From a virus: 64,000 nucleotides of DNA. The notes below the pieces were generated by a model that was given only the letters and a program-made list of their open reading frames with translations, made no database searches and was not told the DNA's origin. The stretch's first letter is position 1. Each line of letters begins with the position of its first letter. Shown one piece after another: positions 27,669 through 61,675 of this stretch. Location: positions 22,861-86,860 of IMG/VR virus record IMGVR_UViG_3300030451_003654; one strand, written 5' to 3'. A program made the position numbers and the translations under genes.

Positions 27669-27704
27669 ATTTTTCACTTCCTTTATTTTGTGATTCTAAT
27701 AGAA

Positions 27705-32065: not shown

Positions 32066-32293
32066 TTACTCACCACTCATTTTTACTACTAATTCGTCTA
32101 TTTCCTTCCAATCCATCTTTGCAATTGTATCAGCACTTGGTACTCTACTTGCTGTTTGAATTGATGGTTTCATTCCTTCTACTTTAACAAGACCTGACTT
32201 TAGTAAAACATTATCAGCATTAAATACTGTTGTTTCTAAGGTCTTGATTCTATCTACTAATTCTTTTAATAATAATGTTAATTCTTCATCCAT
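32066..32293 (-). CDS. Small protein with scaffold-like C-terminus
   Basis: C-terminal DTIAKMDWKEIDELV resembles the protease-scaffold end DVIAKM...MSWEELNDLV. Confidence 0.65.
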   Translation of the reverse strand: MDEELTLLLKELVDRIKTLETTVFNADNVLLKSGLVKVEGMKPSIQTASRVPSADTIAKMDWKEIDELVVKMSGE

Positions 32294-34803: not shown

Positions 34804-34805
34804 AA

Positions 34806-35030
34806 TCAAACTTCCTTCATCTTCTTGTTTATTTTTGGACCGCCTGTAATAAATCCTGGAATTGATTGTTCATTAATTCCTTTATTTACGGGTGGGTGTT
34901 CATGAACCCCTGCTGGAACTGTATTTACAGTTTGCTTTTCCGCTTTAGGTTCTTGATTAACCTTCTTTCTAAGATTATCAATTTTTGCTCTTGCTTCTTC
35001 TAATTTTCTATTAATTATATTATTATTCAT
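34806..35030 (-). CDS. Small hypothetical protein (start MNNNIINRK)
   Basis: ATG right after the portal stop; the track's longer start overlaps the portal gene. Confidence 0.55.
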   Translation of the reverse strand: MNNNIINRKLEEARAKIDNLRKKVNQEPKAEKQTVNTVPAGVHEHPPVNKGINEQSIPGFITGGPKINKKMKEV

Positions 35031-35031
35031 T

Positions 35032-39462: not shown

Positions 39463-39467
39463 TAGAA

Positions 39468-40103
39468 TCACCTACACTTAAGAATATCCCATGCCTTTTG
39501 CATAGCCTTATCTTCTTTCATACTTTCAGGAATATAAATAGCATAAGTTCTATTTTTACCTTTTAGTACATCATAATGTCTTTGTGGAATATCAGGATGT
39601 TTTTCTTCAGCGTTAAGGAATATCTCAAAACCCTCACTTGTATATTTTGTTAATCTATTTTCGCTATCATTTGATAAATCAAGAACAATAGGTATTTTTC
39701 TTTGATTTGCTAAATCTTTTATGAAAGGCATTCTTTTCTCATCTAATATTTTATTAAAGCCTCTACCTCTATAATCTACTCCATACATTTCAGGGTGTTT
39801 AGGCATACCGCCTACTGTAAAACTACCTGCATCACCAATAACATCATCTAATGCTACTGCACCTACCTTAGCAACATAATAACCAAACTCATCAACTATA
39901 ATCCAAATATAATTTTCAGTACCGCTAAATGTAAAGGGGCTATCCTTTCTATTTCTTGGTCTTCTATTTGCTTTCTTCCACCTATTACCTATTTCTATAA
40001 ATCTTTCTTCTGAAATTGGACCAACTATTGTAAAGGTTTCACCATTATTTTGGAAAGTTTCTCCCGCAGGTACAGGATATACTTCATCTCTTTCTCCCTT
40101 CAC
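39468..40103 (-). CDS. GNAT-like acetyltransferase with C-terminal KAWDILK tag
   Basis: Motif A-like DYRGRGFN and Y..EGF; tag-like C-terminus. Confidence 0.5.
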   Translation of the reverse strand: MKGERDEVYPVPAGETFQNNGETFTIVGPISEERFIEIGNRWKKANRRPRNRKDSPFTFSGTENYIWIIVDEFGYYVAKVGAVALDDVIGDAGSFTVGGMPKHPEMYGVDYRGRGFNKILDEKRMPFIKDLANQRKIPIVLDLSNDSENRLTKYTSEGFEIFLNAEEKHPDIPQRHYDVLKGKNRTYAIYIPESMKEDKAMQKAWDILKCR

Positions 40104-42676
40104 CTAAACATCCCCTTAACCTTGTAGATAATTTCTGAAGTAAATCCATAGGTTTCGGCAATATCATTAAATGAAGATTGACTCTTAGTAATATTGTATA
40201 TATCAATACCGTATAAATCTATATTATGTTCTTCTTTAATCATATTTGAAACATATTGAATGTCCTCTAAATCGCTAATATCTAATAACCCATAGTAGAT
40301 TTTATCTCCCTTCATTTTTCTAAGTATATCAGTTGCTTCTAACATAGCGTGAGTAATTGGTCCTGTTAGTTTTACATCAGATTCTAATAATTTCTTCTTT
40401 ACTCTCTCACTTGCTGTTTTAAATCCTCTAATTCTCATACCTGTTGTATTGATGTAATTTTCCCATTCATCTGAATTAATTAGGGCTATCAAATTTTCAA
40501 TACTTACCTGTTCCTCTTTTTGTTTATTATTCCAAAAACTCAAAGATTCTCCTTCAAAAATAATCTCATCTAATTCAGATTTATCTTCAGTTGCTGAAGC
40601 AACATCGTAAAGACTTGCACCAAATAATATTTCACTTCTTTCAATAATACTATCTAACTCATATGATTCATCTTCTACTACTGAATCTACACCTGCAAAG
40701 AATTTAATATAAGCATTTAAAGCATCGCTAAACAAATTATTCAAATCATCAGTATAAACTAATTCATTTTGATTTGCTATTCTTCCTAAGAATTTATTTA
40801 AAGTGTTTAAATCATCTACTTCTATAATAGGTTCGTTACCCTCTCTCATAGACCTTCTCGCCATGTTAATATTACTACTTGCAACAATTGAAGGGAAATC
40901 TTTGAATGCCTTTGATGTAAAGAATTTAGGTACATCTTCTAACAAAACCATATTACTTGTTAATGGTTTTACATAAAACTCAGAAATAAGAGTTGTTACA
41001 GTTTCTATTTCTTTCATTCTATCTAAATCTACTTGACTCATCTTAGGTTGAAGTGTTCTTGTAATACCTCCTAAATATTGAACAGGTGTACTATCTTGTC
41101 CACCTCTACCTCTTCTTACAGGTCTATCAGGTACTCTTTGTTTTGAGTATTGTAGATTAATAAAATTACCTACACCTTTAAAGAATCTTTCTGTACCTCT
41201 ATTAATAAATTTAACAGCCTCAGAATATTTCCTAAATGATTCAGATTTTTTAATTCCTCTTTCATAATAATTGACAGTATATAGTGCTTCTAAATTATCA
41301 AAATATTTTACAGCCAACTCATCATCTAATAGAGGGATATAAGAATCGCCTCTAATCATAGCACTTTTTCTAAAATTATCCAAGAATTTTTCTAATTCTT
41401 TATCAACAATTTTCTCAAGGTCTTTTTGAAATGCACCCATAGTTTCAAATTTTAATTCAGATTTAATTAATTTAAGAGCCTCTTCAATAACATCATTATC
41501 ATATTCACCTTTCAATTCTTTATTTCTCATCAACAAAGCGAATAATGGGTCTGTTTCTTTATCTATTTTAGTTTCATCTATTTCTTTTTCGGCTTCTTCA
41601 ATCTCATCTACTATATCATCTACTGCCGTAGGGTCAATAGATAAAGTAGAGCCTCCACCTTCAGCATCATAATCTTCTCTTGCAGTTACATTTATTCTTG
41701 CTTCGGCTTCTTTAGCATCAACTTTAGGTCTGTATTGTTCAGGTATTTCTCTACCTATTTCGCTAAAGAAATCTCTAAATAATTCTAATGCTTGATATTC
41801 AGGTCCATTACTTTTAACTTTCATGCCTGATACTTTAATGATATAAGAAGGAAGATATGCATTTTCAGTTAATTTATTAATGTCGCTATATACTTCTTTT
41901 AGTCTTTGTAATTCTTCTTCTTCCTTTTCTGTTTTAGGGCTTTCAATAAGAGGTTGTGATTCATTAAACTGTGCAATAATTCTTTCTACATTTGTCATTT
42001 CATCATCTACTGCACCAACAAACCCATCAAAATCTTCAAATTTAGTTTCTATATTTTTCCAATATCTGTAATATTTTTCTCTTGATTCAGTAGATATAAC
42101 ACTCGCATTTACTAATGATTTTTCTAATAAGTCTAAACTTTTAAATTCAGGTATTTCAGCAATTTCACTTGCTTCCTCATCACTAATACCACCTAATCTT
42201 TCAATTAGTATTTGTATTGCTTCTTTATCTTCTTCATTTAAAATGTCTTTACCCATTCTACTTGCTCTTTGAGTTAAAACTTTATTTAATTCTTCAATTA
42301 ATTCTTCTTTATTTTCAACAGCATTATATGTAACATCAATCTTTCTTGCTGATTTGATTGCCGCTACAAGTGAATCTCTATTCTTTTCTGTGTTTAAAGA
42401 AGTGGCTATTTGATTAGCATCTTTTCCATCAATAATAAAATTACTAATAATACCCTCGTTTGGATTAAAGACCTCTCCCCTTTGTTCTTTATAATCAGTA
42501 ATATCATTGAATAGTCTTTTTAATTCACCTATTCTCATTTTATCATTATCAGTTTCCTGTTGTACTAAGGCAAGTGTATCTTGTAGTCTTTCATCAGTAA
42601 TTCTACCCCTTTCATATCTACCTGCATCTCTAAATAATCTTGTTCTTAATTCATCAGACAAGTTATCTATATCCAT
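40100..42676 (-). CDS. Large acidic hypothetical protein (858 aa), possible C-terminal HTH
   Basis: Long ORF; SFNDIAETYG..SEIIYKVK at the C-terminus. Confidence 0.7.
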   Translation of the reverse strand: MDIDNLSDELRTRLFRDAGRYERGRITDERLQDTLALVQQETDNDKMRIGELKRLFNDITDYKEQRGEVFNPNEGIISNFIIDGKDANQIATSLNTEKNRDSLVAAIKSARKIDVTYNAVENKEELIEELNKVLTQRASRMGKDILNEEDKEAIQILIERLGGISDEEASEIAEIPEFKSLDLLEKSLVNASVISTESREKYYRYWKNIETKFEDFDGFVGAVDDEMTNVERIIAQFNESQPLIESPKTEKEEEELQRLKEVYSDINKLTENAYLPSYIIKVSGMKVKSNGPEYQALELFRDFFSEIGREIPEQYRPKVDAKEAEARINVTAREDYDAEGGGSTLSIDPTAVDDIVDEIEEAEKEIDETKIDKETDPLFALLMRNKELKGEYDNDVIEEALKLIKSELKFETMGAFQKDLEKIVDKELEKFLDNFRKSAMIRGDSYIPLLDDELAVKYFDNLEALYTVNYYERGIKKSESFRKYSEAVKFINRGTERFFKGVGNFINLQYSKQRVPDRPVRRGRGGQDSTPVQYLGGITRTLQPKMSQVDLDRMKEIETVTTLISEFYVKPLTSNMVLLEDVPKFFTSKAFKDFPSIVASSNINMARRSMREGNEPIIEVDDLNTLNKFLGRIANQNELVYTDDLNNLFSDALNAYIKFFAGVDSVVEDESYELDSIIERSEILFGASLYDVASATEDKSELDEIIFEGESLSFWNNKQKEEQVSIENLIALINSDEWENYINTTGMRIRGFKTASERVKKKLLESDVKLTGPITHAMLEATDILRKMKGDKIYYGLLDISDLEDIQYVSNMIKEEHNIDLYGIDIYNITKSQSSFNDIAETYGFTSEIIYKVKGMFR

Positions 42677-44796
42677 TACTCTTCCTCCTCAGTTGATGAT
42701 TCTCTTAAAAATTTCTTAGTAATTAAATACTCTCTAATACCTGCTGCTTGTCCTCTAACTTTTAATCCTTGACTTCTATATTTACCTGTGGTATCATCGG
42801 CAATATTTTGAATTGTTGATGCTAACTGAGCCTTTATAGCATCTTCTACATCTAAAAGAATTTCATCAATAAGACCTTTTGTTTCTGAAAAATCTTGTCT
42901 TGTACCAAACCAATTTGTAGAGTTATCTTCAAAATCACCATCTTCAATAAAATCTCTCATAGAATTTAGTCTATCTTCTTGAGATTCTGTTGAATCATTT
43001 TCACTAAAGTAATCTTCTATATTATCAAAAAATGTATCTATCAATGTTCTCATGGAAACATTATATGGAGAGTACTTATCTCTTTCTAATGTCATTTTAA
43101 TAATAGTCATCAATGCTCTCATTGATTTAATAAAATTATCTTCTGAAGGGTCTGCAAATAATTTACCTGTTGGTAGGTATTGTTTAAATCCTCCCGTTGG
43201 TACTATTTGTAAAGCCTTATCTTTTCCTTCTAATCCTAAATCTATGTAACTATTGTACATTAATGCTAAAATATTTCTTTCAAAACGATTCATAGGAGTT
43301 TCTAACATATCAATAAAATCTGATAGCCCCTTTTCAGTATCAAATGAATACGCTAAATCTACAAAGTCAGCACCTGTATTACCCCTAAAGTTAAAGTATT
43401 CTTTCATTGATTGTCTATTAGAAGTGATTTCATCTTGTTCTTCCTTTGGAAGTTTTCTAAATTCAGCCTCCATCTTGTTCTTTCTTCTAATATCATCTTC
43501 GTATCTTTTAAGCCAAGTAGCATTCTCGTTCTTAACTTGAGATTTAATCCAATCAATTAGTTTTGCTCTTTGAGTATAATGTCTTTCATACTTTCTACTA
43601 CCTTTAGGTGCTTCTTCTAATTGAACTCTTGAAAGAATTTCATAGCCACCGATGTTAATGTCTGTATTAGATTCTTCCATTCTTCTATTAATATAACTAA
43701 TAGTCCAATCGTGAAGATAATCTTTTTGTCTTTGCGTACCTCTATCTCCCCTTCTTCTAACTTCTACATCTCTAACCAATTGTGTAATACTTTGTGATTT
43801 ATATCCTAAGTCATAAACAATACCTATACTTTGATTTCTGATATTTTTAAATATACCTTCGGCTGAATTAGTCTTTTGTAATTTTTCTACTAATTCTTTA
43901 AATTGACCTTCAGTAAGTCCTGCAATTTTATTACCGAGTCTTTCATGAGTAAGTAATTTTTCTGATGATGCTTCTCCTACTTCCATTGTTTTAGGGTCGG
44001 CTACTCTTCTTGTTCTTTCTTTTGTTCCTTCTCTTCTAACTCTTTCGCTTGCTCTACCGTATTTATCTTCATCTTTACCTGATACTACTGTAATATCTTT
44101 CATACCCTGTGCAGAATATTTGTATTTATTAGTAAAGAAATCAAATACTCTTTTATCAATACCACCTACTACATCAGGTTCTAATCTTAATTTAAATACA
44201 TTTTGGAAAAATTCAGGATTAGGATTTTGTATTGATTCTAATCCCATTTTATTATACCATCTTTTATCTCCACTTTTAAATTGACCTTTCGTACTTTCAT
44301 CTATAAATTTATACAAAGCGTAAAGTAATTCAACAGATGGTTCATTAACCATCATATCATAAAGAGCATTCAATGTTTCAATTGTCCACTCTTGATTTGT
44401 CTTACCATCGGGCGAAACAATCTCACCATATGTTTGACCCATAGGTGTATTCTCACTTGCTAAAGAAATATCAGATGTTCTTTTCAAACCTTCATAATGT
44501 TTTAATCTCTCTTCAATAATCTTTAGACTTTCTTCTCTTGTATCAGCAACCTTAGTCCTTCTACCTGTAATCATTTGTGTAACTACACTATCTTCTAAAT
44601 CATTACCTTCCTTAGAAGAATTAAACCCTTCTCTAAGTTTAGTAATTACATTATCTAAATATTTATCTTGTAAATCTTGATTTGTAACTTCAGCAATCTC
44701 TTCTTTAGAAGGTAATTTACCTGTTCTAAATCTTGAGATTAAAGCCCCTACTGATATAGGTGGCTTATCCGCTTTCAATAAAGAAATCCAAGACAT
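42676..44796 (-). CDS. WxxLLK-tagged large hypothetical protein
   Basis: Begins MSWISLLK. Confidence 0.75.
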   Translation of the reverse strand: MSWISLLKADKPPISVGALISRFRTGKLPSKEEIAEVTNQDLQDKYLDNVITKLREGFNSSKEGNDLEDSVVTQMITGRRTKVADTREESLKIIEERLKHYEGLKRTSDISLASENTPMGQTYGEIVSPDGKTNQEWTIETLNALYDMMVNEPSVELLYALYKFIDESTKGQFKSGDKRWYNKMGLESIQNPNPEFFQNVFKLRLEPDVVGGIDKRVFDFFTNKYKYSAQGMKDITVVSGKDEDKYGRASERVRREGTKERTRRVADPKTMEVGEASSEKLLTHERLGNKIAGLTEGQFKELVEKLQKTNSAEGIFKNIRNQSIGIVYDLGYKSQSITQLVRDVEVRRRGDRGTQRQKDYLHDWTISYINRRMEESNTDINIGGYEILSRVQLEEAPKGSRKYERHYTQRAKLIDWIKSQVKNENATWLKRYEDDIRRKNKMEAEFRKLPKEEQDEITSNRQSMKEYFNFRGNTGADFVDLAYSFDTEKGLSDFIDMLETPMNRFERNILALMYNSYIDLGLEGKDKALQIVPTGGFKQYLPTGKLFADPSEDNFIKSMRALMTIIKMTLERDKYSPYNVSMRTLIDTFFDNIEDYFSENDSTESQEDRLNSMRDFIEDGDFEDNSTNWFGTRQDFSETKGLIDEILLDVEDAIKAQLASTIQNIADDTTGKYRSQGLKVRGQAAGIREYLITKKFLRESSTEEEE

Positions 44797-44805
44797 ATGA
44801 CAACC

Positions 44806-45012
44806 TCACAGTTGAGATTGTACAAATGCTACTACTACCAAAATAGAAGGTATTGCAATAAGAATTTGTTTCTTATATTGCTTAAGTTTAGCGAGAATCT
44901 TATCAACCTTTTTCTCACTAATAATTCCTAAATCTTCAGCAATATCGAGAGCATCTTCTACTAAATCTTCTACATCTTCTATTGTTTCTTTAATTTCTTC
45001 TTCCTTTACCAT
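44806..45012 (-). CDS. Small C-terminally anchored membrane protein
   Basis: C-terminal ILIAIPSILVVVAFV; RBS GGTGA. Confidence 0.6.
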   Translation of the reverse strand: MVKEEEIKETIEDVEDLVEDALDIAEDLGIISEKKVDKILAKLKQYKKQILIAIPSILVVVAFVQSQL

Positions 45013-45013
45013 T

Positions 45014-45376
45014 TTATTCACCTTTAATTGTGTCCATAGTATTACTATGAGTATTATTTTCTGCTTCCATAGCCATTTGATGTCTATGTTGTGCTTCTTC
45101 TAAACCTCTTCGGTGTTCATATTCAGCAGGTACTTCTGTAATTTCATTAGCCTGTTCCGCTTCCCATGTTCTTAAAAGAGTATTAAATGCGGGTGCAGCA
45201 ATTCCACCAATAATAGCGATTAATGCAATAAACCCATCAAGATTCTGCAATACTACATCAGGCTTCATAATACCTGTATAAACAACTGCACCTGAAGCCA
45301 AAAGCCACAAATAAATAGCAGGTAAAACAGTTTTATTTACTAATTTGTCGTTAAATGTATTTTTATCTTTACCCAT
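45014..45376 (-). CDS. Two-TM membrane protein (holin-like)
   Basis: Two hydrophobic segments followed by a charged tail. Confidence 0.55.
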   Translation of the reverse strand: MGKDKNTFNDKLVNKTVLPAIYLWLLASGAVVYTGIMKPDVVLQNLDGFIALIAIIGGIAAPAFNTLLRTWEAEQANEITEVPAEYEHRRGLEEAQHRHQMAMEAENNTHSNTMDTIKGE

Positions 45377-45377
45377 T

Positions 45378-45623
45378 TTACATCACCTGTGTTCCAACCA
45401 TAATAGACGATACTATCCCTATTAATCCTAATATTACTTTCTTAATTAAATCAAACCCTTCCCCGATAATTTGGTTCTGTGCATCCATTGATGTTGCTAA
45501 CTCCGTTAATCTCGTACTTAACTCTAACTGATTATCCGCTAATTTATCTAAAAGTAATTCATGTCTATCAACCTTTGTTTCAATATTATCTAATCTAATA
45601 TCTTGAACATCGTCTTTAGCCAT
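45378..45623 (-). CDS. Coiled-coil protein with C-terminal TM segment
   Basis: Heptad pattern followed by VILGLIGIVSSIMVG. Confidence 0.6.
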   Translation of the reverse strand: MAKDDVQDIRLDNIETKVDRHELLLDKLADNQLELSTRLTELATSMDAQNQIIGEGFDLIKKVILGLIGIVSSIMVGTQVM

Positions 45624-45627
45624 TGTA

Positions 45628-45927
45628 TTACTCACCTAAATCATAATAATAATCTTCTGACCTCATTGTATTAGGGTCAAAACTATCTATTTTATCTGAA
45701 TGCCAACCAAATAAATAATTTCTAATTGCTCTTGGTTTTTGACTCATTCCTAATACTCCTAACTTTTTTAGAACATGTTGATTAACATCTCTTACAGAAG
45801 TTTTACCATCTACTGATGACATAAATTCATCAATAACATCTCTAACATTTTTAGGTGGTACAGGTTTCTTTCTCTTTAATATATTTGCTTCTTCCATATC
45901 TGTTTTTAATATTTCTTTCCAACTCAT
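45628..45927 (-). CDS. WxxILK-tagged small protein
   Basis: Begins MSWKEILK. Confidence 0.75.
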   Translation of the reverse strand: MSWKEILKTDMEEANILKRKKPVPPKNVRDVIDEFMSSVDGKTSVRDVNQHVLKKLGVLGMSQKPRAIRNYLFGWHSDKIDSFDPNTMRSEDYYYDLGE

Positions 45928-46586
45928 GTTAATCTCTCCGCTACACTATCTCTAATCTCAGTCCATACTTCAGGATATTTTTCTATTAAAACTTTTTGTA
46001 TAATTTCAACTTGTTGAACAACAACAGTTTCCTCTCTTTTATGAACCAATTGTCCTTTAAATTCTAACATATACTTTAGAGATTCTCTAATTTCTTTTGC
46101 TAATTTTGTTAATGAATCAATTTGTTTTGTGCCTAAATCAGTATTTTCTAATAACTCATTTACTTTATTTTGTAATGTAGTTACATTTCCTGATAATATA
46201 TCTATTTCGTTTAAATCCATTCTCGCTACCTCCATAGCACCGTGTTGTTGTACAATTGGTTTCAAATGTTTTTTCATATGTAATTGTACTTGGGCTTCTG
46301 AACATGATAACATTTCAGCAACTTCTGATATTTTTAATTCTCCTTCGGCTATTCTAATTTCTATTTCGGCTCTATTAGAATGTGTACATAGTGGACAAGA
46401 TGGGTTTGAGTTATCATGATAACTACCTAAATGGTTTTGCATGTGCTTTTTAGAAGTACCTGCCCACCAATTATTTTGTTTATCTAATTCATCACAAGTA
46501 ATATTTCCAGCAAGAATATCCTCTTCTAAACCATCACGGTCTTCGTGTTGGCATAATTTACAAGACTTTCTTACCTTTCTTGTCAT
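45924..46586 (-). CDS. Putative terminase small subunit (two Zn-binding HTH-like repeats plus coiled coil)
   Basis: CKLC...HMQNH and CPLC...HMKKH repeats; helical C-terminus; upstream of TerL. Confidence 0.5.
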   Translation of the reverse strand: MTRKVRKSCKLCQHEDRDGLEEDILAGNITCDELDKQNNWWAGTSKKHMQNHLGSYHDNSNPSCPLCTHSNRAEIEIRIAEGELKISEVAEMLSCSEAQVQLHMKKHLKPIVQQHGAMEVARMDLNEIDILSGNVTTLQNKVNELLENTDLGTKQIDSLTKLAKEIRESLKYMLEFKGQLVHKREETVVVQQVEIIQKVLIEKYPEVWTEIRDSVAERLT

Positions 46587-46590
46587 AAAA

Positions 46591-46779
46591 TCAATCCCTT
46601 GCTAAGAAAGCACTATTACCGCCCTTTCTACTTTTACTTCTCTTCTGTGGTATCTTTTTATTTTCTTCTGCTAATTGTCTAAAATCTTCAGCCGTCAATG
46701 AACCATCTTTATTTTTATCAAGATGCTTCTTCTGTTTATCAGTCAATTTTTTATTTTTAATTACAGTCCACCATTTCAT
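46591..46779 (-). CDS. Tagged EF-hand-like mini-protein
   Basis: ATG after RBS GGTGA gives MKWWTVIK; DKNKDGSLTAED EF-hand-like loop. Confidence 0.65.
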   Translation of the reverse strand: MKWWTVIKNKKLTDKQKKHLDKNKDGSLTAEDFRQLAEENKKIPQKRSKSRKGGNSAFLARD

Positions 46780-46783
46780 ATTA

Positions 46784-48049
46784 TCACCTTCTAAATCCAA
46801 CGCAACCACTATATTGTTTTTTAGGGCATTGCTTTGCTAATTTAATGGGAATATCACTACTTCCTAATTGTTTTGCTAAAGGACAATCAGGTTTAAAACA
46901 CCTACTCTTCTTTTGTAAAATTTCTTCTAATGATGAAACTTGACTACCAAATTTTTCTACTTGCAATTCACCTTGTTGTTTTAAAATTAATCCAGGTTTT
47001 GCTATACCTTCTTTTGCTTTCGGGGTTTCAAACTCATTTATTTCTTGTCCTAACACATTTAACACCTCTTTAATTGTTTTATTTAATGCAATATTATTTC
47101 TTGGAAATCTTAATTGAATATTTTTAATCTTTTCAATACCTTCAACTCTATCATAACCTTTTGCAAAATTTAATAATTGTGCTTCTTCAGCATTTCTAAT
47201 TGCATAAGATTCATTTGTAAATGCAGCATTTAATCTATCTTTCATAGGTGCTCTTGATTTACCTGCTGGATAGATACTTCTATTATTCAAAACTTCTATT
47301 ACCTTTTCTTGTACGCTTTTAATTTGGGCTAACTGTCTTGGACCTGCTGAATTATTAAATACTGCAATTCTGTTTCCATCACCCATTTTAATTTTATCTA
47401 CACCTTTTAGTGCTTTTCTTGCAATTGCTAACAAACCATTCTTACCGTATTCAGTTTCACCTTCACCTGTAATTGCTTGCCATAGTGGAGGTTTTGCTTT
47501 ACCTTTCTTTTCGTTATACCAATCAGAATTTGTTTGTGCAAATTGCCCTTTGAAACCCTGTTTATTTTCTTTCATATAGGTTACATATTCATTATATGCT
47601 TCTGTTCTATAATGTCCAAATACTTGTCCTCTTTCTACGATAGGGTCATCATCAGTTTCAGTAAAATCAATAACGGTAGTAAAGGGAATATTTCTTGGAT
47701 TCCATTTAGGATTTTGTAAAACTGCTAATAAATCTTCAATATCTTCTTCTAACTTATTTCTGTGTTCTGTTTCTATAACATCTCCATCAAAAATTTCTGT
47801 TAATGATTCTAATAAAGCACCTAAACCTTCTGTGCTTCTTGCTTGGTCTCTCGCATAAGTAGCATCACCGTGATTTAATACTGTATCTAAAACAGTATCG
47901 GGTTTTGCTTCTCCAACTTTACCTCCAACAATTCCCCATTCTGTACCTTTATTCCATCTTTTTTTCCATGAATTAAAAGCACCTTTAATCTCACCAATGT
48001 TTAAGCCCTGCTCAACATTATCAAAATCTGTACCTTCAAATTTACTCAT
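46784..48049 (-). CDS. Hypothetical protein with C-terminal Cys cluster
   Basis: 421-aa ORF; ends with CFKPDC...CPKK...C after EEILQKK. Confidence 0.7.
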   Translation of the reverse strand: MSKFEGTDFDNVEQGLNIGEIKGAFNSWKKRWNKGTEWGIVGGKVGEAKPDTVLDTVLNHGDATYARDQARSTEGLGALLESLTEIFDGDVIETEHRNKLEEDIEDLLAVLQNPKWNPRNIPFTTVIDFTETDDDPIVERGQVFGHYRTEAYNEYVTYMKENKQGFKGQFAQTNSDWYNEKKGKAKPPLWQAITGEGETEYGKNGLLAIARKALKGVDKIKMGDGNRIAVFNNSAGPRQLAQIKSVQEKVIEVLNNRSIYPAGKSRAPMKDRLNAAFTNESYAIRNAEEAQLLNFAKGYDRVEGIEKIKNIQLRFPRNNIALNKTIKEVLNVLGQEINEFETPKAKEGIAKPGLILKQQGELQVEKFGSQVSSLEEILQKKSRCFKPDCPLAKQLGSSDIPIKLAKQCPKKQYSGCVGFRR

Positions 48050-49365
48050 TAATCATCACAACCGCAAGGTGTAGTTTTATCATTACATCTTTCACAAGGA
48101 GGTTTTTCACCATACATTATATTTGCTTCAGCAGGTCTAAAGCCCGCATTTGTTGTCATTCCTATTCCTGCTCTTTTAGATAATAAATCACGCCAACCGA
48201 ATTCTCCTGTATATTGGTCGTTAGATTTAAATTCTTCTTCAAACTTTCGTCTTTCTTCATCTGTCATTTCTCCTGCTTGTACTTGTGGTCTATCTCTTAT
48301 TTCTTGTGCTTGTTCTTCTGTTAGTTGGTCTGATACTTCAGGATTACTTTCAGCACTTTCTTGAAATTGTACTAATCTAATTTGAAATGCAAAACCTACA
48401 TTTCCTGTAAATTTCTTAACTAATTCTGTCATTTCAGACTTGGCATAAAGATTTTGTAAATTGTTTTTAACATTTCTTCTAACTTCGTTATTATTAATGT
48501 CGGCTTGTCCATCTCCGTCTAAATCAAAAATACTTTCTTCAGCATCATTAATTACATCATCTAAATATTCATCAACATTGTTAATTAAATTCTTAACATC
48601 CTTTTCAATCCTACTACCTAACGCTGTCCATTGGTCGTCAATAAATGATTGAGGTGGGTCAGCCATAAAATCAATTTCTTCCTCATCATCTTCATCTTCA
48701 TCTTCTCTATAAGATTCTTTGTCAAATAAATGTTGTTGTTTTGTATATGATGCATCAAATATTGCAGACATCATTTCTTCTGTAAATTTAAGTCCTGCAT
48801 CCACCATTCTATTATATCCTGATGAACCCATAATTCCTTGAATACTTCTTTCTGAATCTACAAATGATGCAGGAGGTGGACCTGTACCTCTATCTTTAGT
48901 AAGACTTGTTAAATAACCTTCAAGCATACCTTCAATATTCATCATAGCAATTTCCATACCAATACTTTGAATGTTTTTAGATGCCTTTGATTTCTTTTTA
49001 TCTATTCTTGCAAATCCTGGATTTTCAGGGTCTAAATTAATTGATGATTGTCCAAAAGCACCAACCTTACCTAAATATTCATCAAAGGTATTCATTATGG
49101 TTCTAAACCAATTTACAAGACCCACCTTTTGTAGTCTTATTTCATCAGGTAAAGGTTCATCAGGATTTTCTTCTCTAAAGTCAGCAACATTTTGTCTAAT
49201 ATTACCATCTTTATCTCTAATTATAGATTGTTTATCTCTTCTGAATGGCTTTTGTTTAAACCCATAACCGTCAATAAATACTGAACCATCGGGTTTTTGA
49301 AATCTATCACCGAGTTTGATTTTGCGTTTATCATCATCATCTTTTAGTATATTTCTCCAACTCAT
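48049..49365 (-). CDS. WxxILK-tagged acidic protein
   Basis: MSWRNILK; internal GWRDLLSK; C-terminal CERC...CGC. Confidence 0.75.
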   Translation of the reverse strand: MSWRNILKDDDDKRKIKLGDRFQKPDGSVFIDGYGFKQKPFRRDKQSIIRDKDGNIRQNVADFREENPDEPLPDEIRLQKVGLVNWFRTIMNTFDEYLGKVGAFGQSSINLDPENPGFARIDKKKSKASKNIQSIGMEIAMMNIEGMLEGYLTSLTKDRGTGPPPASFVDSERSIQGIMGSSGYNRMVDAGLKFTEEMMSAIFDASYTKQQHLFDKESYREDEDEDDEEEIDFMADPPQSFIDDQWTALGSRIEKDVKNLINNVDEYLDDVINDAEESIFDLDGDGQADINNNEVRRNVKNNLQNLYAKSEMTELVKKFTGNVGFAFQIRLVQFQESAESNPEVSDQLTEEQAQEIRDRPQVQAGEMTDEERRKFEEEFKSNDQYTGEFGWRDLLSKRAGIGMTTNAGFRPAEANIMYGEKPPCERCNDKTTPCGCDD

Positions 49366-49517
49366 TCTTCGTTCCTCCTTAGAGCCTTAACTAAAGAATC
49401 AATGACATCTAAGGGCATACCTAACTTTTTACCTTCTTTGGTGAATGCTTTTAATGCTGTTTCCCAATCAGTAATATCTTCTTCGGTAATGCTCTTTAGA
49501 TACTTTTCCCATGTCAT
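49362..49517 (-). CDS. Tagged 51-aa protein (not in ORF track)
   Basis: MTWEKYLKSITEEDITDWETALKAF...; TAATG and ATGA overlaps with both neighbours. Confidence 0.7.
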   Translation of the reverse strand: MTWEKYLKSITEEDITDWETALKAFTKEGKKLGMPLDVIDSLVKALRRNEE

Positions 49518-49768
49518 TATTGTAACTCTCCCTTCTGAATCATTTGTTTAAATAACATTTCTACACTCTTACTAAATTTTGTAAAATCTTCAAGAATATC
49601 CTTAGCCTCATCAACATCAAAAGGCATATTAGTTGATGCAGGGTCATCTCCAAAAGATTCTCTTGCTAACGCTTCCATTTCTTCTATATTGTCCTTCAGT
49701 CTTGCTATAAAATCAACAATACTGTTAAGTCCTGTATATTGTTTTTGTAAGGTATCTTCCCATGACAT
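49517..49768 (-). CDS. Tagged small protein
   Basis: Begins MSWEDTLQK. Confidence 0.7.
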   Translation of the reverse strand: MSWEDTLQKQYTGLNSIVDFIARLKDNIEEMEALARESFGDDPASTNMPFDVDEAKDILEDFTKFSKSVEMLFKQMIQKGELQ

Positions 49769-49822
49769 GTAATCGCCTTTGAATACTTTATTTTTTTACT
49801 ACTATATATTAATTACTTAAGA

Positions 49823-50875
49823 TTAGGGTCTATACTTAAGCGCATCATCAAAATTATTTGTAACCCACTCATCAGCAATATCTACTATTTTTTCCATCAT
49901 ATATTCAGCCTGTATATCAAAATGGTCTATATCGGCTCTAATTCTATCTTTCCACTCTTGAGGATAATTAGAATATTTTACAATATTAGTTTTTTTAAAT
50001 CCCGCTAATAATTGTAGTCCGTAATTAGGTATTTTATCTCCTGAAGCCTTTAAAGCATTACTATCATATGTATTTAATTTGTGTGCAACTCCAGCACTCC
50101 AAAAATCAAGCGATGGAATAAATGATTCCCATCCTTTAGAATGTATTAACCATAATAATCTACAAGCATCCTTTCTTGATATATTTTCAGATTTAGTATA
50201 AATAAAATCTACTATAAAAATTTGCATAGTTTGGTAATTTGTTCTATCATTAGGTATAAATTCCATACTACTATCAACTAATTTAGACATATGACTTCCT
50301 TTAAATTTATTACCTACTCTCCTTCCACTAAAATTATAACTAAAATCAGCAGTACTAAAATCATATTTTCCTCCTTCATCAGGATAAAAACTAAAAGCAT
50401 TATATTGTTTAACAAAACTTTCAATTACATCTGTTATTCTACTATAATATTCTAAACAATCATCGTTTGGTTCTTCTTCAGGAACAGGCTCATCTTCTTC
50501 ATCTTCTTCCTCATCAGGTAATTGTTCTGTATCAGTTAATAGTTTTGTTCTTGCTTGAGTTACTGTTTCGGCTTTTCTAATATGTGAAGTGACTTTACCA
50601 ATCACTTTATTTGCTAAACCTGAATTAGATATAATTCTATTACCTATTGATGTAAGCCAAGTTTCAAGCCTAACATTAACCCATGAAGATATATCTTGCG
50701 GTCTAATATCAGTTTGCTTAAGATTTTCTACAAATTTATTTTTTATATCCATATCTGTTACATAAAATTTAGAGCCTTCAGGTAATTCTTTAACTGCGTC
50801 TAATAAAGCATTTTTAAACTCTTGAAAATAAATGCTATGTAATTTTCTTTTCTTTAGAATAGTATTCCAACTCAT
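49823..50875 (-). CDS. Tagged two-domain protein with internal PLPD-type module
   Basis: MSWNTILK; internal QARTKLLTDTEQLPDEEEDE...C. Confidence 0.75.
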   Translation of the reverse strand: MSWNTILKKRKLHSIYFQEFKNALLDAVKELPEGSKFYVTDMDIKNKFVENLKQTDIRPQDISSWVNVRLETWLTSIGNRIISNSGLANKVIGKVTSHIRKAETVTQARTKLLTDTEQLPDEEEDEEDEPVPEEEPNDDCLEYYSRITDVIESFVKQYNAFSFYPDEGGKYDFSTADFSYNFSGRRVGNKFKGSHMSKLVDSSMEFIPNDRTNYQTMQIFIVDFIYTKSENISRKDACRLLWLIHSKGWESFIPSLDFWSAGVAHKLNTYDSNALKASGDKIPNYGLQLLAGFKKTNIVKYSNYPQEWKDRIRADIDHFDIQAEYMMEKIVDIADEWVTNNFDDALKYRP

Positions 50876-59690: not shown

Positions 59691-60307
59691 TAAACATTCC
59701 TTCCTAATCTTCTAAGAAGTGCATCATAACTTATGCCCTCTTTTGTTGCTTGTTCTTTTAAATCTTCAATCTTATACATTTTTTGATTAATGTATAAATA
59801 TCCTGGATTTGCTCTTTCAACTTCAGCAATAGTTTCTTCAGCAGTTTGTCTATCCTCACCTGAAGTATCTCTCAAATCTTTTGTTTCTCTAATATTTTCT
59901 TTTACATTTCTTGCTACTGCATCTGCAACAATAGTAATTAGTTTAGTTTCACTACTTACTACACTATCTCTTGTTAAAGTTACAGATGGTCCGAGTAATC
60001 TTTCAAAGTAATAATCACCTGATTCATCCTCCATCATAATAATTTCAAATACTTCCCTTTGCTTAGTATCTTTATGTCTATATGAAATTCTAATTTGTAA
60101 TATCTCATCTGAAATATACCTCTCTCTAACATTGATATTAGAAACTCTATCCTCTCCCTCTCTCATGGCTTGAGTAATTTTACCATAGTATTGACTTGCT
60201 GATGCTCTAACTGCTGCTCTTAATCTTTCAACAAAATTATCTACATCTCTTACAATTAGATTTTCGCCTTGATTATTTTTAATTTTTAATATTTCTTCCC
60301 ATGTCAT
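59690..60307 (-). CDS. Tagged hypothetical protein
   Basis: Begins MTWEEILK. Confidence 0.75.
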   Translation of the reverse strand: MTWEEILKIKNNQGENLIVRDVDNFVERLRAAVRASASQYYGKITQAMREGEDRVSNINVRERYISDEILQIRISYRHKDTKQREVFEIIMMEDESGDYYFERLLGPSVTLTRDSVVSSETKLITIVADAVARNVKENIRETKDLRDTSGEDRQTAEETIAEVERANPGYLYINQKMYKIEDLKEQATKEGISYDALLRRLGRNV

Positions 60308-61062
60308 AATATATATCTCCCATATTCTTGTAATAAGTAAGGTTCTTCATCAATTAATTTTTCCTTTATCTTATTATACATTTTCATTGTTGCTGGATTT
60401 CTTCTCGCTTTTGCTTTTACTTGAGGATGTCTAAGTACTGCTAATAATCTACCATTAGGATTATCAGGCATTTGTACTGTATATGCAATATACTCTTCCA
60501 TTAAATTATTACCTTCTGATATACCTGCGGATTTATCTTTATACGGGTAATCTAATATTTTTGATGCTTGATGTCCAAACTCATGAGCCAAAGTATCATA
60601 TATTTTTTCTTGTTGTTCATAATAATACTGTATCATCATCGGGTGTTTTTTGGTAGCCAAATTAACTACTACTGCATCATCTTCAGGATTATAATATCCC
60701 ATCGCTTGTCTTGGTTCATATCTAAAATCAGCCGTCATCATTTTTGAACTTAATTCATTTAACATATCGTTAAAATCTTCTAAATCATAATGTTCTTCAA
60801 TTCTACTCTTATCAGTATTATAGACTACCTGCACTCTATCTAAAATTTTAGAAATAACTGAATCATATTTTGCTAATACTTCTTTTGTTGTCGGACCTGC
60901 TATATCTAATAAATCTTGTAAATCATTATGAAGTCTATCTATTTCAGGAGTCCAATATTCATATCTACCACCTTTGTAAAAACCCATAACATCTTCTAAG
61001 TCATCAAGAATATCATCCATATTTGATGGAGTCAAACTCTTAAGGACTTCAAACCATGTCAT
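60304..61062 (-). CDS. Tagged zincin-type (HExxH) metallopeptidase-like protein
   Basis: MTWFEVLK; GYYNP...VVVN...TLAHEFGH...EEYIAY. Confidence 0.7.
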   Translation of the reverse strand: MTWFEVLKSLTPSNMDDILDDLEDVMGFYKGGRYEYWTPEIDRLHNDLQDLLDIAGPTTKEVLAKYDSVISKILDRVQVVYNTDKSRIEEHYDLEDFNDMLNELSSKMMTADFRYEPRQAMGYYNPEDDAVVVNLATKKHPMMIQYYYEQQEKIYDTLAHEFGHQASKILDYPYKDKSAGISEGNNLMEEYIAYTVQMPDNPNGRLLAVLRHPQVKAKARRNPATMKMYNKIKEKLIDEEPYLLQEYGRYIL

Positions 61063-61166
61063 TTCTTTTCACCTGTGATTAAATCTTTCCCATCTTTTTT
61101 CTCAGCCTTATCTAATTCTTTAGACTTAGCATCAAACCATTCATCTAACAATTTACATCTTGTCAT
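61059..61166 (-). CDS. 35-aa microprotein (not in track)
   Basis: MTRCKLLDEWFDAKSKELDKAEKKDGKDLITGEKK; TAATG and ATGA overlaps on both sides. Confidence 0.55.
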   Translation of the reverse strand: MTRCKLLDEWFDAKSKELDKAEKKDGKDLITGEKK

Positions 61167-61675
61167 TATTCAAACCCCCTTTGCCTACCTTTAAAATTAG
61201 CCATTAACCTATGTGTTTTCAACGGATTATCCTTTCTTTTATACTTATCTCCAAATTGTCTTGCTATAAAATTGTAAATATCTGTGTTATGAAATGCCTT
61301 TGTAGCAACTGCCTCTACAAATCCTTCTACTGTTGTAGGTATATTATACCTTTCTAATAATTCTTTATTATTATTGATTTCATTTTGTAGTTTATTTCTC
61401 CTAAAAATGAAAAAGCCACCAACTGAATGTTTATATGTTTTTGACCTATCACCTGTATCAATAAATTTACCTTCTAAATCTGTACTATTAACCCAATCAT
61501 CTATTTCATCCTTATATTGAAGATACCAATAAGACATAATATATCCTAAATTCCTATCAGGATTTTGTTCAAATAATAATTTAGGTCTTTCCCAATAAAA
61601 AGAAGGGTCATCTTTTCTACTGCTATAATTTGAAGCATCATACAAGTCGGCTTTAAGGATATTAAACCAACTCAT
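61166..61675 (-). CDS. Tagged hypothetical protein (first gene of the array)
   Basis: Begins MSWFNILK. Confidence 0.75.
   Translation of the reverse strand: MSWFNILKADLYDASNYSSRKDDPSFYWERPKLLFEQNPDRNLGYIMSYWYLQYKDEIDDWVNSTDLEGKFIDTGDRSKTYKHSVGGFFIFRRNKLQNEINNNKELLERYNIPTTVEGFVEAVATKAFHNTDIYNFIARQFGDKYKRKDNPLKTHRLMANFKGRQRGFE

What the first reader, a model, noticed from the sequence alone, without database searches (positions are those of the whole stretch)
42676..61675. About 25 unrelated viral genes share one N-terminal W-x-x-I-L-K tag: candidate capsid cargo-loading system
Seen: starts of the array genes include MSWFNILK, MTWFEVLK, MTWEEILK, MWEDILK, MWEDLLK, MNWEDILK, MWKDVLK, MWEDIIK, MDWEDVIK, MWANILK, MTWMTILK, MRWNDIIRK, MWKDILK, MSWEDILK, MNWEDIIQK, xSWKDILK, MSWQDILK, MWEEILK, MSWNTILK, MSWEDTLQK, MTWEKYLK, MSWRNILK, MKWWTVIK, MSWKEILK and MSWISLLK. 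Outside the PLPD sub-family the downstream bodies look unrelated (PAP2 phosphatase, HExxH peptidase, EF-hand, TRD-like, basic domains). Synonymous codons vary within the tag, pointing to selection on the peptide. The genes are translationally coupled, lie on the same strand just upstream of terminase, portal, protease and MCP, and tail or replication genes lack the tag. Established: T4 internal proteins use a short N-terminal capsid-targeting sequence that the prohead protease removes, and HK97-fold encapsulins load cargo through short peptides. Inference: the tag addresses an interchangeable set of proteins into the procapsid for co-ejection with the DNA. I know of no description of this in archaeal viruses.
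Basis: partly seen in the sequence, partly recalled or inferred. Interest (0 to 1): 0.95.

Follow-up and report, generated by a model that had tools for sequence, protein, structure and literature searches.

The report
Shared head-address tag on magrovirus proteins
Twenty-five mostly unrelated genes next to the head-building genes of this ocean archaeal virus (a magrovirus) start with the same eight-residue peptide, which resembles the tail of the virus's own scaffold proteins, so it most likely loads a fast-changing set of soluble proteins into the capsid, though loading has never been measured.

Summary
All 25 listed starts exist, and all lie on the minus strand between 42676 and 61675. The tag M-(S/T/N)-W-x-x-[IV]-[LI]-K occurs at no other ORF start in the 86.9-kb genome.

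Synonymous codons vary as they do in the gene bodies, and 22 of 25 starts have a ribosome-binding-like site. So the peptide, not the DNA, is conserved.

The 25 proteins fall into 17 body clusters. Across relatives, 695 tagged proteins fall into 335 clusters.

The virus is a magrovirus. Every relative with 10 kb held upstream of its terminase (18 of 18) carries 4-10 tagged genes, always on the terminase strand.

The key link: M-[SDT]-W-x-[DE]-[ILV] recurs about 15 residues from the C-terminus of the prohead protease-scaffold and of a 75-aa head-module protein. Among sampled ORFs it was found in C-terminal tails only there.

Conserved hydrophobic-hydrophobic-Lys sites in the capsid protein and protease suggest the tag's I-L-K is a cleavage site.

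Best reading (about 0.55): a removable capsid-targeting tag, like the T4 capsid targeting sequence (CTS). Encapsidation, cleavage and ejection are all unmeasured.

This scan reached the same reading on at least 11 other magrovirus genomes. I found no paper describing it.

The parts
61166..61675 (-). tagged gene, 169 aa, MSWFNILK
60304..61062 (-). tagged gene, 252 aa, MTWFEVLK; HExxH visible, no Pfam family
59690..60307 (-). tagged gene, 205 aa, MTWEEILK
59205..59690 (-). tagged gene, 161 aa, MWEDILK
58522..59202 (-). tagged gene, 226 aa, MWEDLLK, PLPD leader family
57887..58525 (-). tagged gene, 212 aa, MNWEDILK, PLPD leader family
57415..57885 (-). tagged gene, 156 aa, MWKDVLK, PLPD leader family
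56219..57415 (-). tagged gene, 398 aa, MWEDIIK, two PLPD modules
55437..56219 (-). tagged gene, 260 aa, GTG start, (M)DWEDVIK, PLPD leader family
54916..55389 (-). tagged gene, 157 aa, MWANILK
54629..54919 (-). tagged gene, 96 aa, MTWMTILK
54300..54623 (-). tagged gene, 107 aa, MRWNDIIRK
54047..54295 (-). tagged gene, 82 aa, MWKDILK; in relatives the same domain sits at the C-terminal end of larger tagged proteins
53193..54044 (-). tagged gene, 283 aa, MSWEDILK; internal KSWENIIK at 53502-53528; DUF5754 below cut-off
52144..53187 (-). tagged gene, 347 aa, TTG start, (M)NWEDIIQK; soluble PAP2 phosphatase-family body; internal KSWEGIIF at 52366-52395, kept in 8 of 9 homologues
51732..52142 (-). 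tagged gene, 136 aa, ATT start, (M)SWKDILK
51415..51732 (-). tagged gene, 105 aa, MSWQDILK, basic (pI 11.3)
50872..51183 (-). tagged gene, 103 aa, MWEEILK
49823..50875 (-). tagged gene, 350 aa, MSWNTILK
49517..49768 (-). tagged gene, 83 aa, MSWEDTLQK (variant tag)
49362..49517 (-). tagged gene, 51 aa, MTWEKYLK (variant tag)
48049..49365 (-). tagged gene, 438 aa, MSWRNILK
46591..46779 (-). tagged gene, 62 aa, MKWWTVIK; EF-hand loop below Pfam cut-off
45628..45927 (-). tagged gene, 99 aa, MSWKEILK; looks like a fusion of two tagged genes that lie apart in L119
42676..44796 (-). tagged gene, 706 aa, MSWISLLK; tagged homologues at the same place in 5 relatives
32296..34809 (-). 837-aa head-module protein just after the portal; untagged here, but 12 tagged proteins of 300 aa or more from relatives match it best
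32066..32293 (-). 75-aa head-module protein ending DTIAKMDWKEIDELVVKMSGE (motif at 32087-32116)
27705..28970 (-). prohead serine protease (Peptidase_S78) fused to an acidic coiled-coil scaffold part; conserved ILK at 28896-28904 and IVK at 28437-28445; C-terminal MSWEELNDLV at 27723-27752
26361..27677 (-). major capsid protein (SU10_MCP family); invariant LLK at residues 27-29 (27591-27599) after a conserved 26-residue N-terminal segment

Best explanation
The eight residues M-(S)-W-x-[DNE]-I-L-K are a portable, terminal address peptide for the inside of the procapsid.

**Proposed mechanism**
- The first half of the tag (M-S-W-x-D/E-I) copies the C-terminal helix of the virus's own protease-scaffold and of a 75-aa head-module protein.
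- By analogy with P22, 80alpha and herpesvirus scaffolds and the HK97 protease, that helix is the part that holds on to the capsid protein during assembly.
- Tagged proteins would therefore co-assemble with the scaffold inside the shell.
- The second half (I-L-K) matches conserved hydrophobic-hydrophobic-Lys sites in the capsid protein and the protease. These are probably where the S78 prohead protease cuts.
- On that reading the tag is clipped off, and the free cargo stays inside with the DNA and enters the next host with it.

**Shown**
- The tag exists, is under peptide-level selection and is portable.
- It sits on soluble proteins, and only in the structural-gene direction.
- It resembles the scaffold tail.

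**Inferred**
Binding, encapsidation, cleavage and ejection.
For: **1. The tag is a real N-terminus selected as a peptide.**
- 22 of 25 tagged starts have a Shine-Dalgarno-like tetramer 4-18 nt upstream. The background is 21% of 1,660 ATGs on that strand.
- In 105 tagged ORFs of five genomes, codon use in the tag matches the gene bodies for Ile (p 0.88), Lys, Glu, Asp, Asn and Thr. All six Leu codons occur.

**2. The tag is portable.**
- 695 tagged proteins fall into 335 body clusters, 250 of them singletons.
- A complete CCA-adding enzyme homologue (L052, 416 aa) matches solved enzymes only over residues 11-397. It carries the tag outside that core at both ends.
- In the PAP2 family the tag sits on the first module, whichever module that is.
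- An 82-aa domain recurs at the C-terminal end of larger proteins that are tagged at their own N-terminus.

**3. The tag is linked to head assembly.**
- In 18 relatives with 10 kb held upstream of the terminase, 121 of 121 tagged ORFs lie on the terminase strand: 101 upstream and 20 downstream, among the structural genes.
- In the complete genome G004, tagged genes also lie between the major capsid protein (MCP) gene and the tail tube gene, and after the tail genes. None lies in a replication module.
- Of 53 tagged proteins of 300 aa or more from relatives, 12 have as best match the untagged 837-aa protein that follows the portal here.
- Array genes run into the terminase gene with overlaps of 1-4 nt.

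**4. The tag resembles the scaffold tail.**
- All 19 distinct protease-scaffold C-termini shown carry [ML]-[SDT]-W-x-[DE]-[ILVA] about 15 residues from the end. W409 is invariant in 20 sequences.
- A relaxed pattern run over five genomes hit only the N-terminal tags, the five scaffold tails and 2 other places.
- Among 5,246 ORFs of 60 aa or more, M[SDTN]W.[DE][ILVA] in the last 25 residues gave 61 distinct tails. By length and by the BLAST lists, all come from the protease-scaffold or the 75-aa head protein.
- The tails of those two families change together between lineages. Examples are MDWSEIHKMV beside MDWSDIHKMV, and IAKMSWDDINNLV beside IAKMDWSDINALV.

**5. A cleavage logic is plausible.**
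- LLK at MCP residues 27-29 is kept in 18 of 18 sequences.
- ILK at residues 23-25 and IVK at 176-178 bracket the protease domain in 17 of 17 sequences.
- The terminase has no such conserved site in 75 sequences.

**6. The tagged proteins are soluble.**
- 5 of 695 tagged proteins have a membrane-like segment.
- In five genomes the figure is 0 of 90 tagged genes against 58 of 464 untagged genes (Fisher p 3.6e-5, crude gene calls).

**7. There is precedent.**
- T-even internal proteins are diverse defence proteins that share only a capsid targeting sequence (PMC3012670, passages).
- The first 30 residues of P1 DarB direct a reporter into the capsid (PMC9024508, passages).
- Scaffold ends contact the capsid protein N-arm, and SaPI1 CpmB appears to compete with the 80alpha scaffold there (PMC12749128, passages).
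Against: - No measurement of any kind exists: no virion proteome, no N-terminal sequence, no expression timing.
- The tag and the scaffold tail differ after the shared core. The tag continues L-K; the scaffold continues N/H-x-L.
- I saw no co-variation between a lineage's scaffold motif and its tags. That sample was small and biased: 18 loci, 5 of them with no tagged ORF.
- The load would be large. It is 25 of about 98 called genes and 5,244 residues of coding sequence, far more than the T4 internal proteins.
- The array starts next to the divergent region that faces the replication genes. Promoter-proximal early accessory or anti-defence genes would sit in the same place.
- Enzymes such as PAP2 and the CCA-adding enzyme would work equally well if simply expressed in the cell.
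- The cleavage idea rests on three conserved sites. The Lys preference of the HK97 protease is recalled, not checked.
- The Ser at position 2 may partly reflect ATGA start-stop overlaps. AGT makes up 59% of tag Ser codons against 28% in gene bodies.
Confidence: 0.55

Rival explanations
1. The tag brings proteins to the head-assembly machinery, but they are not delivered cargo. They would be transient helpers, auxiliary scaffolds or simply substrates of the prohead protease, and would be degraded or expelled before DNA is packed.
For: The same scaffold-tail resemblance and the same conserved hydrophobic-hydrophobic-Lys sites fit this reading equally well. Scaffold proteins of tailed phages are removed before packaging (PMC12749128, passages).
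Against: Helpers of assembly should be conserved, but tagged genes turn over fast. Against G002, only 7 of 22 tagged genes have a homologue, compared with 25 of 26 structural genes. The bodies include enzymes with no obvious role in assembly: PAP2, a CCA-adding enzyme and a pentapeptide-repeat protein.
Confidence: 0.12
2. The tag is a short linear motif that binds a partner outside the capsid. The partner could be a host hub protein, a chaperone or a degradation system. The motif would stabilise, localise or time a set of accessory or anti-defence proteins that act in the infected cell.
For: The array is hypervariable and sits at the promoter-proximal end of the leftward gene block, as early accessory genes do in many phages. 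Most bodies have no known family: 1 of 25 window proteins is above a Pfam cut-off, and 9 families were hit among 100 cluster representatives.
Against: It does not explain why the same core sits at the C-terminus of the protease-scaffold and of a second head protein, and co-varies between them. It does not explain why tagged genes lie only on the structural strand and inside head and tail modules in relatives. In 120 stretches of cellular genomes that hold the DNA pattern, none had 3 or more tagged ORFs, against 72 of 118 viral stretches, 48 of them with 5 or more.
Confidence: 0.15
3. The tag is a short amphipathic helix that puts proteins on the cell membrane.
For: W, I and L fall on one face of a helix, followed by Lys. 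The only papers holding strings such as WKDILK are on frog-skin antimicrobial peptides (search listing only).
Against: Eight residues are short for a membrane anchor. The scaffold-tail match is left unexplained. The membrane-like small proteins inside the array (44806-45635, judged by eye) are the ones without a tag.
Confidence: 0.04
4. The conservation is not about the protein. It would be a translation-start or coupling signal in the RNA, or a boundary sequence that promotes cassette recombination.
For: Position 2 favours codons that start with A, as ATGA overlaps require. The window's 99-aa gene looks like a deletion that joined two tagged genes.
Against: Codon choice at Ile, Lys, Glu and Asp follows body usage, and all six Leu codons occur. 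So there is little fixed nucleotide sequence. The same peptide also occurs internally and at C-termini.
Confidence: 0.04

Closest known systems
Capsid targeting sequence (CTS) of phage T4 internal proteins IPI-III (PMC3012670, passages read)
   Same: A short N-terminal peptide is the only thing shared by a diverse set of proteins. The cited review states that it encapsidates them into the scaffolding core and that fusing it to GFP or a nuclease packages them. T4 internal proteins act against host defence.
   Different: The tag sequence is different (the T4 CTS sequence is recalled, not compared here). The host is an archaeon. The protease is of the HK97-type S78 family rather than T4 gp21, and the putative cut follows Lys rather than Glu (recalled). 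This genome has 25 tagged genes against a handful in T4. The tag resembles the scaffold's own tail. The tag also occurs internally and at C-termini in relatives. Nothing has been measured.
N-terminal packaging signal of phage P1 DarB (PMC9024508, abstract and passages)
   Same: An N-terminal stretch is sufficient to send a protein, there an anti-restriction protein, into the capsid.
   Different: That signal is 30 residues on one protein. It is not an 8-residue tag shared by a quarter of the genes.
C-terminal capsid-binding ends of scaffold proteins and their mimicry (P22, 80alpha and SaPI1 CpmB: PMC12749128, passages; HK97 protease tail: Duda et al. 2013, seen only in reference lists, content recalled; herpesvirus protease-scaffold: recalled)
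   Same: A conserved terminal helix of a scaffold or protease holds on to the capsid protein. A second protein with a similar end can use the same site.
   Different: Here the look-alike peptide is at the N-terminus of many unrelated proteins, and it ends in a probable cleavage site. Binding has not been shown.
Encapsulin cargo-loading peptides (recalled; no paper read)
   Same: Short terminal peptides load unrelated cargo into an HK97-fold shell.
   Different: Encapsulins are cellular compartments without DNA, a portal or a protease, and their peptides have other sequences.

Membership tests
T4-type capsid targeting sequence system | A short N-terminal peptide shared by otherwise unrelated proteins | tested here: met
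   25 window proteins fall into 17 body clusters; 695 proteins fall into 335 clusters. There is no conservation after the Lys.
T4-type capsid targeting sequence system | The peptide is sufficient to put a foreign protein into the procapsid | not testable with these tools
   Needs expression of MCP, protease-scaffold and tag-GFP.
T4-type capsid targeting sequence system | The prohead protease removes the peptide at its end | tested here: inconclusive
   Conserved LLK in MCP (18 of 18) and ILK and IVK around the protease domain (17 of 17) match the tag's I-L-K. No cleavage data exist.
T4-type capsid targeting sequence system | Tagged proteins are present in virions and enter the host with the DNA | not testable with these tools
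   No virion proteome of a magrovirus was found: three magrovirus papers were searched for related terms. Supplements were closed.
Scaffold-type capsid-binding terminal helix | A conserved motif at the extreme end of the scaffold or protease-scaffold | tested here: met
   All 19 distinct tails shown carry it. W409 is invariant in 20 sequences. The same motif occurs on the 75-aa head protein and co-varies with the scaffold's by lineage.
Scaffold-type capsid-binding terminal helix | The motif binds the major capsid protein | not testable with these tools
   No binding measurement is possible with these tools.
Caudovirus prohead serine protease (Pfam Peptidase_S78) | Profile match above the curated cut-off | tested here: met
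   PF04586: 41.6 bits against a cut-off of 21, residues 29-180.
Magroviruses (tailed viruses of Poseidoniales / Marine Group II archaea) | HK97-type head genes nearest to haloarchaeal tailed viruses, an archaeal-type replication block, and a DNA ligase inside the structural module | tested here: met
   The MCP's best matches are HCTV-1 and HVTV-1. PolB, an RFC-like ATPase and a ligase lie on the + strand. A second ligase lies between portal and protease, as described in PMC5434244 (passage). The host itself was not tested.

The most novel reading that the evidence does not exclude
An abundant ocean archaeal virus lineage runs a general protein address code. About a fifth to a quarter of its genes encode interchangeable soluble effectors that are loaded into the capsid by mimicking the scaffold's capsid-binding helix. 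The head protease then frees them at a Lys-ended site, including at joints of multi-module proteins, and they are injected with the DNA as a pre-made arsenal. This would be a virion-borne counterpart of polymorphic effector delivery, with a tag short enough to be reused for protein delivery.
Probability: 0.4. Interest if true: 0.9.

Novelty: new variant of a known kind. Interest (0 to 1): 0.82.

Why it matters
- Magroviruses are described as dominating the archaeal virome of the surface ocean (PMC5434244, passage). Yet most of their genes have no assigned function.
- A single 8-residue tag would assign a location (inside the capsid) and a likely role (proteins delivered at infection) to hundreds of dark-matter protein families at once.
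- It would also explain oddities such as large enzymes inside the head module.
- It would be the first capsid-targeting code in an archaeal virus.
- It gives a simple, directly testable handle: tag-GFP plus three head genes.

Tried and rejected
- **Co-folding.** I co-folded the MCP (alignment of 16 sequences) with the 105-aa tagged protein (alignment of 4). The score was 0.00 in both runs, the controls were not run, and the tool's verdict was 'no answer'. This counts neither for nor against binding.
- **Expression.** Of 20 public runs (11 studies) holding part of the head region, one is RNA, and it held only 0.06 of the sampled words.
- **Function of the bodies.**
  - PHROGs on 100 cluster representatives gave 5 families, of which only the tRNA nucleotidyltransferase families are named.
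  - PHROGs on 10 window proteins gave nothing.
  - PDB sequence searches with the 837-aa and 706-aa proteins gave nothing usable.
  - The ESM Atlas gave no usable hit for the 706-aa and 226-aa proteins.
- **Co-variation of tags with the scaffold motif.** None was visible in 18 loci. The sample was small and biased by the search pattern.
- **Same tag in the nearest cultured relatives.** HVTV-1 has no M-S-W-x-x-I-L-K starts in the 49 N-termini I printed. Only its portal, protease, MCP and one adaptor-like protein match this genome.
- **The C-terminal AWDILKCR of the 211-aa protein (39468-40103).** The spacing is W-x-I-L-K, one residue short, so I do not count it as a tag.
- **The apparent IWDYLKK at the start of ORF 34806-35120.** This lies out of frame over the portal's end. 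The likely start is the ATG after an AGGAGAG site, so it is not a tag.
- **A virus chaperonin as tag reader.** None turned up among 10 replication-side proteins scanned. The whole genome was not scanned.
- **Papers.**
  - Tag strings such as WEDILK occur in 11 papers. By title, most are on frog-skin or designed peptides and none concerns phages or archaeal viruses (listing only).
  - 'Capsid targeting sequence' occurs in 21 papers, none on archaeal viruses among the 18 listed.
  - Three magrovirus papers hold no relevant use of 'N-terminal' or 'motif' in their main text.

Full report
**What the window is**

The window is the last 64 kb of an 86,860-bp virus record. Nearly all genes from 62201 down to 2430 lie on the minus strand.
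- Pfam identifies, in order, a large terminase, a portal, an ATP-dependent DNA ligase domain inside an 835-aa protein, an S78 prohead protease, an SU10-type major capsid protein (MCP) and a tail tube protein.
- The MCP's nearest relatives in deposited phage genomes are haloarchaeal tailed viruses HCTV-1 and HVTV-1, at 24-36% identity.
- The first 23 kb of the genome, on the plus strand, hold a B-family DNA polymerase, an RFC-like ATPase, a second ligase and a GMP-reductase-family gene.
- A ligase embedded in the structural module is a described feature of magroviruses (PMC5434244, passage).
- The sequence recurs in marine, seawater and estuary metagenomes: 20 runs from 11 studies, one of which may be the source sample.

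I therefore treat this as a magrovirus. I did not test the host.

**Checking the observation**

- In the whole genome, the pattern W-x-x-[ILVMTY]-[ILVM]-(x)-K occurs 28 times in ORFs of 40 aa or more. Of these, 25 are at the very start of an ORF and 3 are internal. All lie between window 44790 and 61669.
- 22 of 25 starts have a Shine-Dalgarno-like tetramer 4-18 nt upstream, against 21% of all ATGs on that strand.
- Three use GTG, TTG or ATT as the start codon.
- Of the 33 junctions from 62201 to the terminase gene, 28 are overlaps or gaps of at most 10 nt. The array runs straight into the packaging and head genes.
- Five genes inside the array carry no tag. Three of them are small proteins with hydrophobic stretches (judged by eye).

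**Peptide or nucleotide?**

In 105 tagged ORFs from five genomes, codon choice inside the tag follows the gene bodies. This holds for Ile (p 0.88), Lys, Glu, Asp, Asn and Thr, and all six Leu codons occur.

The exceptions are modest:
- Leu leans towards CTA and CTC.
- Ser at position 2 is AGT in 59% of cases against 28% in bodies. This fits the frequent ATGA start-stop overlaps.

The conserved object is therefore the peptide. In 670 distinct tagged ORFs from relatives there is no conservation after the Lys. That sample is biased towards W-E-D-I-L-K by the search pattern.

**How unrelated are the bodies?**

- BLASTP on the bodies without the tag puts the window's 25 proteins into 17 clusters. 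One cluster of 6 holds five proteins with the tag-plus-PLPD leader and the HExxH protein.
- The 695 tagged proteins from the window and relatives fall into 335 clusters, 250 of them singletons.
- Pfam places only the PAP2 protein above its cut-off among the 25.
- Among 100 cluster representatives, Pfam finds a CCA-adding/poly(A) polymerase family enzyme, PAP2, a pentapeptide-repeat protein and two families of unknown function, one member each.

The tag behaves as a module:
- The CCA-adding enzyme homologue matches solved enzymes only over residues 11-397 of 416. It carries the tag at its N-terminus and again at its C-terminus.
- In the PAP2 family, one lineage has the tag directly on the phosphatase. 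The window's lineage has tag, then a 60-residue basic module, then the phosphatase. A second, internal tag marks the joint with a Cys-rich module in 8 of 9 homologues.
- An 82-aa domain that stands alone here sits at the C-terminal end of larger proteins in relatives, with the tag at their own N-terminus.

**Spread**

- 85 of those 118 share at least one protein with this genome. Together they hold 518 tagged ORFs in 1.0 Mb, and 48 of the 118 have five or more.
Of those 120 stretches, 87 had no tagged ORF and none had three. The nine with two were mostly nested starts of one ORF.
- In the 18 terminase-bearing relatives with a full 10 kb held upstream, every one has 4-10 tagged ORFs. All 121 lie on the terminase strand.
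- Whole genomes carry 14-28 tagged genes.
  - In the complete genome G002, tagged genes lie on both sides of the contig ends and in the head module.
  - In the complete genome G004, three lie between the MCP and tail tube genes and three lie after the tail genes.
  - None lies in a replication module.
- Of 53 tagged proteins of 300 aa or more from relatives, 12 best match the 837-aa protein that follows the portal here. In this genome that protein has a different N-terminal 220 residues and no tag.
- Tagged genes turn over faster than their neighbours. Against G002, 7 of 22 tagged genes have a homologue, compared with 25 of 26 structural genes and 8 of 11 untagged array genes (crude gene calls labelled only 22 of the 25 as tagged).

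**The link to head assembly**

- The protease protein consists of an S78 domain, an acidic stretch, a coiled-coil part and a conserved end.
- All 19 distinct tails shown carry [ML]-[SDT]-W-x-[DE]-[ILVA] about 15 residues from the C-terminus, across proteases 43-100% identical to this one. The Trp is invariant in 20 sequences.
- A relaxed pattern run over five genomes in six frames hit only the N-terminal tags, the five scaffold tails and two other places.
- Among 5,246 ORFs of 60 aa or more, the motif in the last 25 residues gave 61 distinct tails.
- By length and by the BLAST lists, all 61 belong to the protease-scaffold or to the small head-module protein encoded at 32066-32293. I did not check each one individually.
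- The tails of these two families change together from lineage to lineage.

Two different head proteins with the same co-varying terminal helix point to a common binding partner.

In other tailed viruses, the resolved ends of scaffold proteins contact an N-arm helix of the capsid protein. SaPI1 CpmB appears to compete with the 80alpha scaffold for that site (PMC12749128, passages). That the tail of the HK97 protease targets it to the capsid is my recollection of Duda et al. 2013. I saw that paper only in reference lists.

**The Lys**

- The MCP has a strongly conserved first 26 residues followed by an invariant L-L-K.
- In every homologue the protease domain is bracketed by [ILV]-[LIM]-K, within otherwise variable surroundings.
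- The terminase has no such conserved site in 75 sequences.

This fits a protease that cuts after hydrophobic-hydrophobic-Lys, and the tag ends in exactly that. The numbers are small, and the specificity of S78 proteases was not verified from a paper.

**Other properties**

- Tagged proteins are soluble: 5 of 695 have a membrane-like segment. In five genomes the count is 0 of 90 tagged against 58 of 464 untagged genes. Spurious ORFs among the crude gene calls may inflate the untagged figure.
- Isoelectric points are bimodal: 37% are above 9 and 36% are below 5.5.

**Reading**

The best explanation is a removable capsid-targeting tag. Its front half imitates the scaffold's capsid-binding helix and its back half is a maturation site. 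The closest known system is the T4 capsid targeting sequence, where diverse defence proteins share only that sequence (PMC3012670, passages). The P1 DarB signal is a second example (PMC9024508).

Differences from T4:
- an archaeal virus with an HK97-type protease;
- a much larger tagged gene set;
- resemblance to the scaffold tail;
- use of the tag at internal joints and at C-termini.

**What argues against**

- Nothing has been measured.
- The tag diverges from the scaffold tail after the core.
- I saw no tag-scaffold co-variation.
- The array's position next to the divergent region would also suit early accessory genes.

**Prior notes and print**

This scan has noted and followed up the same tag on at least 11 other magrovirus genomes, with the same reading. 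Those are AI notes, not independent evidence.

I found no paper that describes the tag:
- string searches for the tag;
- a search for 'capsid targeting sequence';
- searches of the main text of three magrovirus papers.

Noticed in passing
L218 (HVTV-1, KC117377.1) locus 37609-45902: About 15 small HVTV-1 proteins (gp144, gp159-172, 36-83 aa) end in a shared F-W-D-x-R-like motif, for example EQFWDARCPA, NEFWDRRMP and ERFWDWRLDDV. This could be a paralogous family or a C-terminal tag in a cultured halovirus.
   Followed up: no
L052:6429-7679 and L056:875-2125: A complete CCA-adding tRNA nucleotidyltransferase homologue carries the tag at both ends (MGWMQILK... and ...LWKSILKKQYNIK). It is a candidate tRNA-repair enzyme among the tagged set.
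   Followed up: partly
window 45628-45927, compared with L119:3040-3492 and L119:3503-3772: The 99-aa protein starts with the first 15 residues of one tagged gene of the close relative L119. It then continues from the I-L-K of the next tagged gene. This looks like a deletion that removed the first gene's body, so tags may also be sites of cassette loss.
   Followed up: partly
window 52366-52395 and 53502-53528; alignment A5: Internal K-S-W-x-x-I-[IL] copies sit at module joints. The one after the PAP2 domain is kept in 8 of 9 homologues. C-terminal copies such as KKSWNEILKVN occur in 16 of 5,246 ORFs from relatives.
   Followed up: partly
window 55437-59690: Six tagged proteins continue with a second shared leader, (V/N)Q(I/V)xxxRQKLRxDxxPLPDD(D/E)-acidic-C, followed by variable C-terminal domains. 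The same leader type (LKNIQIS..., IKNQISI...) appears in G002 and G003.
   Followed up: no
window 36660-38114: A 484-aa ORF between terminase and portal overlaps the terminase's end. It shows a LAGLIDADG-like stretch (AGFIDSDGYI) by eye, but had no Pfam hit at E <= 0.01.
   Followed up: no
window 29012-31519: An 835-aa protein with an ATP-dependent DNA ligase domain (residues 244-429) lies between portal and protease. It is untagged here. Magrovirus papers note a ligase in the structural module but do not explain it.
   Followed up: no
window 44806-45635 and 51188-51418: The untagged genes inside the array include three small proteins with hydrophobic stretches (possible membrane or lysis proteins). 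There are also a 39-aa Cys-rich ORF and a 36-aa basic ORF in the only large 'gap'.
   Followed up: no
window 45924-46586: The untagged 220-aa Cys/His-rich protein is the most widely shared array gene (32 of 118 pattern loci). Its place and conservation would suit a small terminase or a DNA-binding factor. No family matched it.
   Followed up: no
L339:15810-16862 (genome 15810-16862): An IMPDH/GMP-reductase family gene (E 1.5e-91) sits in the replication block of the virus.
   Followed up: no
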